64,000 nucleotides of DNA from Eledone cirrhosa (Eukaryota): contig OZ024740.1 in assembly GCA_964016885.1 (NCBI GenBank), positions 232,004,001-232,068,000 of the forward strand. Reading direction: 5' to 3'. Of this stretch, positions 32,976 to 59,384 are shown piece by piece. Position 1 is the stretch's first letter. The number at the start of each line of letters is the position of its first letter. The translations under genes and the position numbers were made by a program. The notes beneath the pieces were generated by a model, which worked only from the letters and a program-made list of their open reading frames with translations, was not told the DNA's origin and made no database searches.

Positions 32976-33195
32976 TGGTTTTTATCTAACTATCTATTTA
33001 TCTATCTATCTATCTATCTCGGATGGACACACGCGTGAAACTTGCTGGGTAAATTCTGCCTAAATTTCTATAGAAATTCCTAACTGTAAAACTTCATTTT
33101 TATACCAATTTGGTCAGTCTCTCAAAATATTCTACGCCTTTAGGCGAAATAGTTCACAAAAAGTTTTTTCTGGAAAAGCTAACATTTTTTTTAAA

Positions 33196-35100
33196 ATGGC
33201 TGAAGCTTCTTCACCAACATTCGAAGGAGGAAGAGGGAAGATATGCTTACAGCTTCCCCCTGCCACTGTCATAGAAGCAGATGTCAAAGACAAATGTCAG
33301 CCAGAGGAAGGACTTGACGTTGCCATGGCAACAAACCAAAAGTGTGAAACAATGAACAAAAACAACACAACCAGCGGCACCAGCAACAACAAGAACAACA
33401 ATGCTACGAACGAAAACAACACCAACAACAATAACAATAACAACAACAACAACAACAAGACCAATAACTGCAACAAGGAAGTAAACGACAAAATATCATT
33501 TGCGCAAACCGTAAAGAAAACGGTAAGCTACACTCCGGTAGATATTTCAAATGCAAATGAGCTTTTGAATAACGCCAGACAGTACATAACTTTTGGGGAG
33601 AACGGATCATTTTCCATAAACTCTCCCCCAGATTTGCGAAGAGAAGCTGCCTTGAAAACTATTGTTTTCAGGACAGTCTCAAACAAAACCCGAAAACAGA
33701 CTCAACTTTCACAAGGCGAAATTGAGTTGGTTTTAGAAGATACCTTAAAAGACATTGCTTTCATTCAGAAGGGTAGACTCTACGGGAGTTTATCCATTCT
33801 GATGAAAGACCAACTGACGGCACAGAAATACTCTGTGTCGCCAATTGTGTCACCGTTGTTCACCCTTTTCCCCACTTACATGGGGAAAAGAACACAGAAA
33901 ATAAAAATCCAAAGTATCACACCAAATATTGATATTTGGTGGGTACTATGTGGATGTTTAAACCTAGAAAAAGACACAATAATATCGGTAGGTAAGTACC
34001 CCGGCGACCTGTTCAGCGGAACTAGCCTGGAAATTCTGGTCCAAATGATACCAGAACGAATAGCTAGGATCCCGGAACGTGTGCTGCTGGATAGACTTAT
34101 ATACATAAACATTTTAGTCGAGGGTAGGCGGTCCTCATGCCTAAGCAGGGGTCACCTGAGAGCTTCCTTTCCTCGGCTTACTAGCCAAAAAAAGGCATTA
34201 CTACCAACACCTGCAACACCAGCACAACAATCACGACCACCATCATAACAACAACAACAACAACAACAACAACAAAAAATAGTGACAACAAAACAAACGA
34301 CAATCACAGTCCCACCCAACCCCTCCCCACCTAAAACAACTCCAGAAACACCCACACACATAATAGCTCCCCAAAATGTTCCCCTCCCCACAACATGGAT
34401 GAGGCCTCATCATCGTCATCCAGTGACGATGAGGGAGAGCCTTTCCGACCAGTAAAAAGAAAAAAAGAAAAGACATAGCACAAATAAAATGCAACAGACA
34501 CACAAACACCAACACAAGCGACACAAACAGCACAAACAAAAACACCCCCTCCTGAAAACAAAATACTTACTATAAAACGTAAACACAAACAAGAACCACA
34601 GAAAAAAAGCAACACAACACAACAAAAATGTTACACCTACATAAACACTAAAAATAAAACTTTAACAGGCACCATATATAAAAACCCTTGGGGGGAAACC
34701 GAAGGGAAAACTTTTACACTCTCTTCGGAGAATCCTTATCTTAAAATGATTAGGATCTCCATGGACACACATAAACATTTAAAAGAAAAAATTCCTAACG
34801 ACGTAGGTAACCCCTGCGTCAAACCCTATAACCGCGTCCTTTTGAAATGTTTCCCCACCCCCACCTCAGACACTCCCGCCCCAGACACCCCCACCCCCAC
34901 CTCAGACACTCCCGCCCCAGACACCCCCACCCCCACCCCCACCTGACACCCGCCCCCACCTGACACCCACCCCCACCTGACACCCCACCCCACCAAACAT
35001 CTCCGTCCCCACCCCGTCAGAGACCACCACCCTACCAAACAACCCCTCCCACTCCCCCAAGGAAATTGTGCAGTCTGGTCCCCAGGAGACGAAGAGGTGA
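33196..35100 (+). pseudogene. ORF1 (gag-like) of copy A, premature stop at 34248, zinc knuckle partly deleted
   Basis: Homologous to copy B ORF1 ([34 protein letters not shown]). Contains poly-Asn and Pro/Thr low complexity. Confidence 0.85.
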
Positions 35101-35140
35101 GTGACTTCTTGTCTTCTTCTTTTAACTTTTCAGCACCAAC

Positions 35141-57000: not shown

Positions 57001-58302
57001 TATATATATATATATATATATATATATATATATATATATATATATATATATATATATATATATATATATATATATATATATATATATGTATATATATAGC
57101 CAAAATATATCGCAACATGATGGTAATCCAATTGTTTAGTCCAAGCTGTAAAGAAATGCAAGATTTAAAGTTCTCCGAGGTTCGAGCATTAGTGGTAGGC
57201 TGTGTTTACTGTATACCTAATATAAAGTGGTAGGCTGTGTTTACTGTATATAATAGTACATATACCTAATATAAAGGTGAGGATAAGATAGGTGTGGAAT
57301 GTTTAGTATTCTAATCTACTGAGTTATTTTTCTCTTTCTTATGAATGTACTCGTAATGTATTAAACCTCTATACACGCATGCATAACTACAATCACTTTC
57401 GTGCACACACACACACACACACACACACATACACACATACACATAAACACACACACACACACACACACACACACACACACACACACACACACACACACAC
57501 ACATGCGCGCGTGCATATATATATATGTATGTTTTACATCTGTTCCAATCAATATTTTGTATCAACTCCATATGTTCTCGGCAGGCGCCTGCAGACATAT
57601 AAACATTCTTACTGATACTCACATAGGCATATACACACACATCGACACACACAGGCACACCCATAGAAGCAAACACGCACGGGCGCGTGGGTATACAGTT
57701 TAAAGATGTGTTACCCGTATTTCACACTATATCTGTGTATCTATATTTATATGTGTCTTACTGACATAAGATATACTCACATGCGTACGTATGTTTGTTA
57801 CTGATGTAAGATATACTCACGTAACACATCTTTAAAATATAATTGCACACAGGTGTGATCAATTTAGAGGTCTATGTTAGAGTTTTAAGTGAATGGAAGA
57901 TCACCCACGCAGCCAACCTTGGAGTGACCTTTGCTTTGAACCGGAAATTATTCATGAAGCAATAAAAACAGTTTAGACACACTGTTCTTAGAATACGGTA
58001 TCAGTCTGCCGCACTTCATCACTCTTTTGTGTTGTTTGTGAAGATGTTACTAGCTGTAATTCTCATCAATCGACGGTCGGTTACAAGGAATATTTTACTG
58101 CCATGTTTCTGCTCATTAAATGAAAATATACTGCCATATAGATGGAACGGTGACTAGTTGTAGATGGGGAACTAAACATATATTTAATAAATGGTGTCAT
58201 AGCTAGCTAGCTATCTATATAGATAGATAGATAGATAGATAGATAGATAGATAGATAGATAGATAGATAGATAGATAGATAGATAGATAGATAGATAGAT
58301 AG

Positions 58303-58496
58303 ATTTATTTGCCACACGGGCGCACAAGAAAAGGGGACAAACCAAAGACACATGGCGGTGAGTTTACATACAGTCGTGTAAAAATATTGAAACAAACAAT
58401 TATAACAATTATAACAATCGAAATCCTCAATAAAGGGGAGGCGCTACAAATGGGTTGTTTAATACCCCTTCCATACAACAACCCTCAACTTCAGGA
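58303..58496 (-). mobile_element. Tx1-type copy F, 3' UTR only
   Basis: Homologous to 37620-37805, with (ATAG)n on both sides. Confidence 0.8.
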
Positions 58497-59384
58497 GATA
58501 GATACATAGGTGGATAGATAAAAGGATGATAGTTAGTTATCTAATTAGTTAGGTTTAGTTACCCAGCTAGATATATTAATAGTTCAATGAATATATAGAT
58601 AAACATATGGATAGTTACGTATGTGTAATTAGAAAGTTATAAAGAGAATTTTATGGGATATACACTTGCTCATTAAAATATAACATATAGCTATAGATAG
58701 GATGGTTGTCAAAGTTTCGGCCGCCCTCTGTTCAACAGATTATTAGATACTTAGGGTACTAGAGTGTGTCTGGGAATTAGCTGTCGAAACGGCAACAGCT
58801 CAGAGCAGCCGTCGGCCCCCGATTATTTCTATTATTACAACAATATGACCCTCCCCAAGTATAGCAATATATATATATATATATATACGGGTTAGGAGGC
58901 GAGGTTCTGTGGTTACTGAAAACGAAGTGTTAGATGGTAATCTGGACATAAACTAGAGAAGAAAAGTCTCCCTTTGTCAGCTGTTTACTACGTTGCTTGG
59001 ATGTTTCGGTGCTTAAAACAGGACATCGATCCGTAGCGCGCCCATGGGCTTTTATCTATCAAACGGGCACACACACACACACATATATATATATATATAC
59101 ATCCATAACATCTCTGTCTAACGACCGAACCAGACGTATATTATGATTGTTTGGGATCCAGAAACCTCTGGTAATGGAGTAGTTATATTTTGTGTTGTTC
59201 ACTTTCTAATTATATATATATATATATATATATATATATATATATATATATATATATATATATATATATATATATATATATGTGTATGTGTGTGTGTGTG
59301 TGTGTGTGTGTACGTGTGTGTGTGTCTGTTTGTGTGTGTGTGTGTGTACGTGTGTGTGTGTGAGCGTGAGACAGAGTGAAAGAG

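What the first reader, a model, noticed from the sequence alone, without database searches (positions are those of the whole stretch)
33000..58500. L1/Tx1-type family apparently specific for (TCTA)n/(GATA)n microsatellites
Seen: five copies (A 33020, C 38807, E 40310, B 40608, F 58496) have five different 5' ends, and every one abuts (TCTA)n read on the element's sense strand. All four intact 3' ends also run into (TCTA)n, and E and B are tandem in one tract. A repeat at variable 5' truncation points cannot be explained by a tail alone, and (TA)n and (CA)n are far more abundant here yet unused. Established: Tx1-clade elements include microsatellite-specific families (Kibi, Koshi). I do not know of a GATA-specific one in cephalopods. 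Copy B retains APE catalytic motifs, making it a candidate sequence-specific integrase/RT.
Basis: partly seen in the sequence, partly recalled or inferred. Interest (0 to 1): 0.8.

Follow-up and report, generated by a model that had tools for sequence, protein, structure and literature searches.

The report
Retrotransposon family targeting GATA microsatellites
This is a young, high-copy L1/Tx1-type jumping gene whose copies sit mostly in (TATC)n/(GATA)n repeats in one fixed orientation, likely because its endonuclease cuts there, while close sister families in the same genome sit in (ATT)n, which would make the pair a ready test of how such enzymes choose their targets.

Summary
The five window copies belong to a two-ORF, APE-endonuclease non-LTR retrotransposon lineage with at least 17,619 3' ends in this 3-Gb genome and intact young copies. 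In 91 copies sampled without regard to flank, 55 3' ends and 48 of 85 5' ends abut (TATC)n on the sense strand (background 0.04%), none the opposite strand. Target-site duplications of 11-22 bp start at TAT(C/A)T exactly at the element's end, so the repeat is target, not tail. The family is preferring, not exclusive: 12 of 91 sit in (TA)n and 21 elsewhere, so '(TA)n unused' is wrong; per tract, (TATC)4 is used about 3,000-fold more than (TA)8. Sister families (68% ORF2 identity) sit in (ATT)n, and the TATC families form one clade among them. Only 6 copies keep a poly(A) tail. Best reading: endonuclease-directed target-primed reverse transcription starting at a fixed 3' end. Microsatellite-targeting Tx1 elements are known (Kibi, Koshi); I found no report of this target, but Repbase/Dfam could not be checked and Tx1-clade placement was not testable.

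The parts
32983..33019 (+). (TATC)n tract at the 5' junction of copy A
33020..37305 (+). Copy A: full-length 5' end (GATGGACACAC head), ORF1, endonuclease and RT start, several breaks, internal deletion to the ORF2 stop, 3' UTR lost; C-type subfamily
   Evidence: 89.6% to natural copy in L128 and 81.9% to L130 over ORF2; junction
37620..38807 (-). Copy C: 5'-truncated, end of ORF2 plus 3' UTR; TATC tracts at 37556-37619 (3') and 38808-38902 (5')
   Evidence: zf-RVT E 3e-7
40310..40512 (+). Copy E: about 200 bp of 3' UTR between TATC tracts 40256-40309 and 40513-40609
   Evidence: 92.5% over 40353-40511; first 43 bp did not align to the references
40609..45547 (+). Copy B: 4.94 kb, truncated inside ORF1; ORF2 41847-45283 with one frameshift; 3' UTR ending AATAAAAGAAACA; no poly(A)
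   Evidence: 99.3% to intact natural copy L130; Pfam PF03372, PF00078, PF13966
41847..42560 (+). APE-type endonuclease domain of B, catalytic motifs intact; hairpin loop WTWANRSGSSRSYLDR
45548..45579 (+). 3' TATC tract of B; first 17 bp equal the last 17 bp of the 5' flank (40593-40609), candidate target-site duplication
58304..58496 (-). Copy F: about 190 bp of 3' UTR; long TATC tract 58219-58303 at the 3' end, short one at the 5' end
19054..21740 (+). Copy D: 5'-truncated member of a sister family, ending in (ATT)14 (21699-21740); control for target choice
   Evidence: 72% DNA identity to B, 93.6% to full-length L207; family junctions

Best explanation
The copies belong to an active two-ORF L1/Tx1-type retrotransposon lineage that sits mostly in (TATC)n tracts in one orientation, likely because its APE endonuclease nicks the GATA-reading strand so that the primer ends in ...GATAGATA-3'. 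Shown: each copy ends at AATAAA(A)GAAA plus two inherited bases, is followed at once by TAT(C/A)TAT(C/A)T, and where it can be read carries an 11-22 bp target-site duplication that begins at that T; (TA)n and TATAT-starting unique sites are used at a far lower rate per site. Inferred: the RNA is polyadenylated right at that end, reverse transcription normally starts at the 3' UTR/poly(A) boundary and skips the tail, second-strand cleavage 11-22 bp downstream makes the duplication, and because each insertion regenerates a TATC tract on both sides, later copies pile into head-to-tail arrays. Also inferred: the TATC preference arose once from (ATT)n-targeting relatives through changes in the endonuclease.
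For: Sample chosen by a 3' UTR 35-mer without the flank (91 of the first 100 places fetched): 3' flank TATC 55, TA 12, mixed 3, other 21; positions 8-10 after AATAAA are T, A, T in 90, 90 and 88 of 91. 5' flank TATC in 48 of 85 unrearranged copies and 37 of 68 truncated ones, against 0.035% of positions in 200 kb of evenly spaced control DNA; antisense GATA 0 of 85. 18 of 85 have a non-periodic duplication of 11-22 bp (17 events; L108/L109 share flanks); in 8 with a defined upstream edge no repeat unit was added. Genome: 5,957 3' ends followed by (TATC)4 against 27,717 such tracts; 297 followed by (TA)8 against 4,092,281 oriented tracts. Six copies keep poly(A), each directly after GAAA(C/T)A; one has a 16-bp duplication and one full-length copy has TATC on both sides although poly(A) separates it from the 3' tract. 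Sister family D: ATT at 37 of 37 3' and 20 of 28 5' ends, TATC at none. Intact ORF1+ORF2 in natural copies L068, L115, L129, L130, L132. Closest solved structure is LINE-1 ORF2p. Endonucleases set the target of related elements (PMC4494074 passages; PMC1950540 passages).
Against: No duplication was found in 37 of 85 copies and it is ambiguous in 30 of 85 (pure repeat). 26 of 85 5' flanks fall in no repeat class. TATC before full-length copies may be carried from the donor (L083 has TCTA units at its 5' end but a TA 3' flank). 28 of 85 copies lie just downstream of another copy's tail, so events are clustered and tract counts include tracts duplicated by insertion. The hairpin loops of the TATC and ATT families differ at very few residues, which leaves room for a non-endonuclease determinant. 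Of the six poly(A) copies only three continue with a TAT/TCTAT-type target. No enzyme was assayed.
Confidence: 0.75

Rival explanations
1. The target is chosen mainly by RNA-DNA pairing: transcripts read through into the donor's own TATC flank, and these units anneal to a primer made by a loosely specific endonuclease, so each family keeps to its own microsatellite.
For: AATAAA lies only 6-7 nt before the element end, whereas cleavage usually falls 10-30 nt downstream (recalled); hairpin loops of TATC and ATT families are nearly the same; pairing at the first unit would also add no repeat, so one search does not exclude it.
Against: All six poly(A)-bearing copies have the tail directly after GAAA(C/T)A with no TATC in between, and one of them is in a TATC tract. 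The search for TAT-then-poly(A) ends gave 15 rows at 10 places; three are explained by a target duplication followed by a genomic A run and none showed a clear read-through tail.
Confidence: 0.13
2. The endonuclease reads a DNA shape (alternating T-A steps) rather than GATA as such, and the excess in TATC comes from access: long (TA)n tracts are poorly cut or poorly primed in vivo.
For: Odd positions of the target are almost always T while position 4 tolerates C or A; L1 endonuclease is described as structure-selective (PMC1950540 passages).
Against: About 3,000-fold per-tract excess of TATC over TA; strict strand polarity on GATA; the ATT families avoid TATC in the same nucleus.
Confidence: 0.08
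3. No targeting: TATC is a tail made by RT slippage or later expansion, and 5' tracts are tails of neighbouring copies or survivors of selection.
For: 28 of 85 5' flanks lie within 170 bp of another copy's tail; 5 copies have TATC at the 3' side only.
Against: Duplications that start with TATC and run into unique sequence (L059, L091, L102, L124); no TATC added at TATAT-starting targets (L046, L075, L099, L108); 37 of 68 random truncation points in TATC at 0.035% background.
Confidence: 0.04

Closest known systems
Kibi ((TC)n) and Koshi ((TTC)n), Tx1 clade, teleost fish
   Same: APE-type non-LTR elements inserted in a microsatellite (PMC3812793 and PMC4494074, passages).
   Different: Target here is (TATC)n with a TAT(C/A)T core, in an invertebrate-type genome, with over 17,000 copies; relationship to Kibi/Koshi by RT tree could not be tested.
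Crocodilian Tx1 families preferring (TTCC)n/(TTTC)n
   Same: Tetranucleotide preference rather than exclusivity; that paper calls a family target-specific above 20% of flanks, which this lineage exceeds (55 of 91).
   Different: Different repeat; those families are old, this one has intact copies 99% alike.
Human LINE-1 (ORF2p, L1-EN)
   Same: Same fold and domain order (profile E 9e-208; Foldseek E 1e-53); hairpin loop of the same length; duplication of similar size; target read mainly on the primer side of the nick.
   Different: No poly(A) in the insertion (6 copies against at least 17,619), ORF1 with a CCHC-like knuckle, 17% identity, microsatellite target instead of TTTT/A.
Waldo/Mino (ACAY, AC) and Dong (TAA)
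   Same: Other microsatellite-targeting non-LTR elements; Dong's target equals that of the ATT sister families.
   Different: Recalled, not tested: Waldo/Mino are R1 clade and Dong is an R4-clade element with a restriction-like nuclease; the elements here are L1-like by sequence and fold.
'L1-Tx1' families in the Octopus vulgaris repeat annotation (PMC13282606)
   Same: That paper lists 13 recently active L1-Tx1 families (part 1 of 3 read); the lineage here may be among such families if the genome is octopus-like.
   Different: A term search of the main text finds no 'target', 'GATA' or 'insertion preference'; I did not see its library or supplements and did not identify this genome.

Membership tests
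L1 group of APE-type non-LTR retrotransposons | ORF2 with N-terminal APE endonuclease, RT and C-terminal zinc-binding region | tested here: met
   PF03372, PF00078, PF13966 on natural ORF2 of L130 (PF13966 below its curated cut-off)
L1 group of APE-type non-LTR retrotransposons | ORF2 closer to LINE-1 ORF2p than to other solved retroelement proteins | tested here: met
   Profile 696 bits to L1 versus 239 to R2; L1 ORF2p top in Foldseek
L1 group of APE-type non-LTR retrotransposons | Variable 5' truncation and target-site duplication | tested here: met
   Lengths 39-5,797 bp; 18 of 85 non-periodic duplications, 37 of 85 none
L1 clade in the narrow sense (LINE-1-like) | Poly(A) tail at the 3' end of insertions (feature recalled) | tested here: not met
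   6 copies with A8 against 17,619 ends running straight into TAT(C/A)
Tx1 clade | RT phylogeny groups with Tx1L, Kibi, Koshi, Keno | not testable with these tools
   No named Tx1 protein among 83 and 106 hits or in the Atlas rows; Repbase/Dfam not available
Tx1 clade | ORF1 with CCHC zinc knuckle (feature recalled) | tested here: inconclusive
   [14 protein letters not shown] present; zf-CCHC E 0.051, under the cut-off
Microsatellite-targeting Tx1 families (Kibi/Koshi type) | More than 20% of copies flanked by one repeat (criterion of PMC4494074) | tested here: met
   55 of 91 3' and 48 of 85 5' flanks
Microsatellite-targeting Tx1 families (Kibi/Koshi type) | Repeat pre-exists at the empty site | tested here: inconclusive
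   Supported indirectly by duplications; the direct look for an empty allele gave no cover of the flanks
Microsatellite-targeting Tx1 families (Kibi/Koshi type) | Endonuclease nicks the target sequence selectively | not testable with these tools
   Needs an in vitro assay

The most novel reading that the evidence does not exclude
A single L1/Tx1 lineage switched from (ATT)n to (TATC)n through a handful of endonuclease changes, one of them at the tip of the DNA-probing hairpin (Ile/Met in both ATT families, Ser in all TATC subfamilies), and pairs this with an RT that ignores its poly(A) tail and starts at a fixed 3' base. It now touches a sixth to a fifth of all (TATC)4+ tracts of the genome at its 3' ends alone and breeds new tracts by duplication. 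It would be the first natural, intact sister pair showing how an APE retrotransposon is retargeted between microsatellites, and a ready scarless-3'-end integrase for GATA repeats.
Probability: 0.3. Interest if true: 0.72.

Novelty: new variant of a known kind. Interest (0 to 1): 0.52.

Why it matters
How APE-type retrotransposons pick microsatellites is called 'not well understood' in a review (PMC3812793, passage). Here two target classes occur in one genome in families 68% identical in ORF2, both with intact natural ORF2 copies (L130, L212) and thousands of junctions, so domain and loop swaps can test the question directly. The lineage also explains a large share of this genome's GATA microsatellites (17-21% of tracts start at an element 3' end), which matters for microsatellite marker design: flanks of GATA loci will often be this repeat.

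Tried and rejected
Empty-site test: contigs of four runs laid on L099 (unique flanks, 12-bp duplication) did not cover the 3' flank and showed no skipping joint among the rows listed; inconclusive. Expression: no RNA holder listed. Single-sequence PDB search with the endonuclease found nothing; the profile did. A and C as one inverted element: rejected, since the tract beside C's 5' end reads TATC on C's strand, not on A's. The first DNA search included the tail and is biased toward TATC, so L001-L030 were left out of all counts. One search's pattern covers only some subfamilies and was not used as a denominator. The careful tree did not finish; the quick tree is reported, and the endonuclease tree was not built. 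Earlier scan notes: none. Supplements of PMC4494074 could not be read and may list further Tx1 targets.

Full report
Observation. Four 5' junctions are strong; F has only 9 bp of clean repeat. A's 5' end is the full-length head shared with intact copies. The copies are not one tight family: B is 99.3% identical to an intact natural copy (L130), A and C are about 80-82% to it and 88-90% to another subfamily. A sixth relative at 19054-21699 (72% to B) ends in (ATT)14.

What the element is. Full-length natural copies are 5.7-5.8 kb with ORF1 (about 595 aa, one CCHC-like knuckle, E 0.05) and ORF2 (1145 aa: APE endonuclease, RT, zinc-binding region); five of the 25 copies over 4.2 kb carry both frames whole (L068, L115, L129, L130, L132). 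A profile of ORF2 and 42 relatives matches LINE-1 ORF2p best (E 9e-208), and the predicted model (pLDDT 85) does too. The nearest database relatives are one unnamed protein at 69% and a group at 38-45%; none is a named Tx1 element, so Tx1-clade membership is likely but untested. One 3' UTR 35-mer has 2,128 exact matches, another 6,083, and 17,619 3' ends run into TAT(C/A) (91 TATC and 9 TATA among the 100 rows listed).

Unbiased junction test. I took the first 100 genome matches to the 3' UTR 35-mer, which does not include the flank, and analysed 91 (the last 9 were not fetched). 3' flanks: TATC 55, TA 12, mixed 3, other 21. Regardless of class the flank starts T-A-T in 90, 90 and 88 of 91, then C (74) or A (16). 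5' flanks, after setting aside 6 rearranged copies: TATC 48, TA 9, mixed 2, other 26 of 85; among truncated copies 37 and 9 of 68. The same test fires at 0.035% (TATC) and 4.6% (TA) of positions in 200 kb of control DNA. A looser test gave TATC 47, ATT 1 and antisense GATA 0 of 85. Genome-wide, 5,957 ends are followed by (TATC)4 and 297 by (TA)8, against 27,717 and 4,092,281 oriented tracts: about 21% versus 0.007% per tract. About 20 of the 100 listed TATC ends are in a phase that the tract count misses, so 17-21% is the fair range, and insertions themselves add tracts.

Target, not tail. 18 of 85 copies have a non-periodic duplication of 11-22 bp anchored seven bases after AATAAA; 30 are ambiguous because both sides are pure repeat; 37 show none. 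In eight events with a defined upstream edge no repeat unit was added, including four whose target starts TATAT. The two last bases of the element (CA, TA, CT) follow lineage: nearest neighbours share them in 52.5 of 73 cases against 21.8 in shuffles (maximum 36.1 of 2,000), so the end is fixed and inherited. Only six copies keep poly(A), always right after GAAA(C/T)A; one has a 16-bp duplication, one sits in TATC on both sides, one in TA, the others elsewhere. This favours an RNA without read-through TATC and an RT that starts at the 3' UTR end, but rests on six copies. 28 of 85 copies lie just behind another copy's tail, and at least five different 5' heads with related ORF1 follow TATC tracts.

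Sister families. Family D (1,592 exact 3' matches) has ATT at 37 of 37 3' ends and 20 of 28 scorable 5' ends, TATC at none; background 2.3%. A second family shows ATT at 15 of 15 3' ends. ORF2 identity between the TATC copy L130 and the ATT copy L212 is 68%. In a quick maximum-likelihood tree of the RT-and-downstream region the three TATC subfamilies form one clade (SH-aLRT 100) beside one ATT family (85), with the other ATT family outside; the root is not tested. The hairpin that contacts DNA in L1-EN (PMC1950540, passages) reads N-x-S-G in the TATC subfamilies and mostly N-R-I-G or N-R-M-G in the ATT families. This is one evolutionary change, so it is a lead and not an association; that paper also argues that loop flexibility matters more than loop sequence.

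Known systems. Microsatellite-targeting APE elements are established: Kibi (TC), Koshi (TTC), Waldo, Mino (PMC3812793, passages) and crocodilian Tx1 families in (TTCC)/(TTTC) (PMC4494074, passages; supplements unreadable). A curated octopus annotation lists active L1-Tx1 families with no word on targets in its main text (PMC13282606, first third read plus term search). Eight searches of the held library (listings only, apart from the four papers named) showed no GATA/TATC-targeting element, but Repbase, Dfam and most subscription papers were not searchable.

Verdict. Real, genome-wide and strong; a preference with a TAT(C/A)T core rather than GATA exclusivity; a new target variant of a known kind. 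The enzyme's role is inferred. Interest 0.52, resting on the testable TATC/ATT sister pair.

Noticed in passing
window 32736-32770: AAGAAACA, the last 8 bases of the element, stands between two TATCTATCTAT runs: possibly an 8-bp insertion with an 11-bp duplication.
   Followed up: no
window 32781-32983, 17744-17950, 54656-54934: A repeat of about 210 bp with a long internal palindrome, set in TATC or TA tracts; three copies in the window.
   Followed up: no
L083, L087, L073, L095 5' ends: Full-length copies carry extra 5' bases or TCTA units absent from their 3' flank, as if transcription starts in the donor's upstream tract.
   Followed up: partly
L130 versus L115: Two subfamilies are nearly identical from ORF2 residue about 235 onward but 88% in the endonuclease and more distant in ORF1 and 5' UTR, suggesting recombination or 5' replacement.
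   Followed up: no
L265: A poly(A)-bearing 152-bp copy sits in a tract reading GATA on its sense strand, the opposite of all tail-less copies scored.
   Followed up: no
L108, L109, L110: Two independent insertions in the same tandem repeat starting TATATTTCTAATGAAAGA, one of them duplicated with its flanks.
   Followed up: partly
runs X1-X6: B's 3' 1.2 kb is held at 58-87% of sampled words by runs under four organism labels, so near-identical copies occur beyond one sample label.
   Followed up: partly
window 21809-22501 (-), 8780-9905 (+), 1993-2828 (+): Fragments of other retroelements: a LINE 3' end with weak zf-RVT (E 0.001), RT-like frames, and a distant ORF2 piece at 34-47% to L130.
   Followed up: no
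proteins P0003, P0011: Unnamed relatives at 40-41% form clusters of 732 and 435 members on long contigs: a high-copy sister lineage in another organism whose target is unknown.
   Followed up: partly
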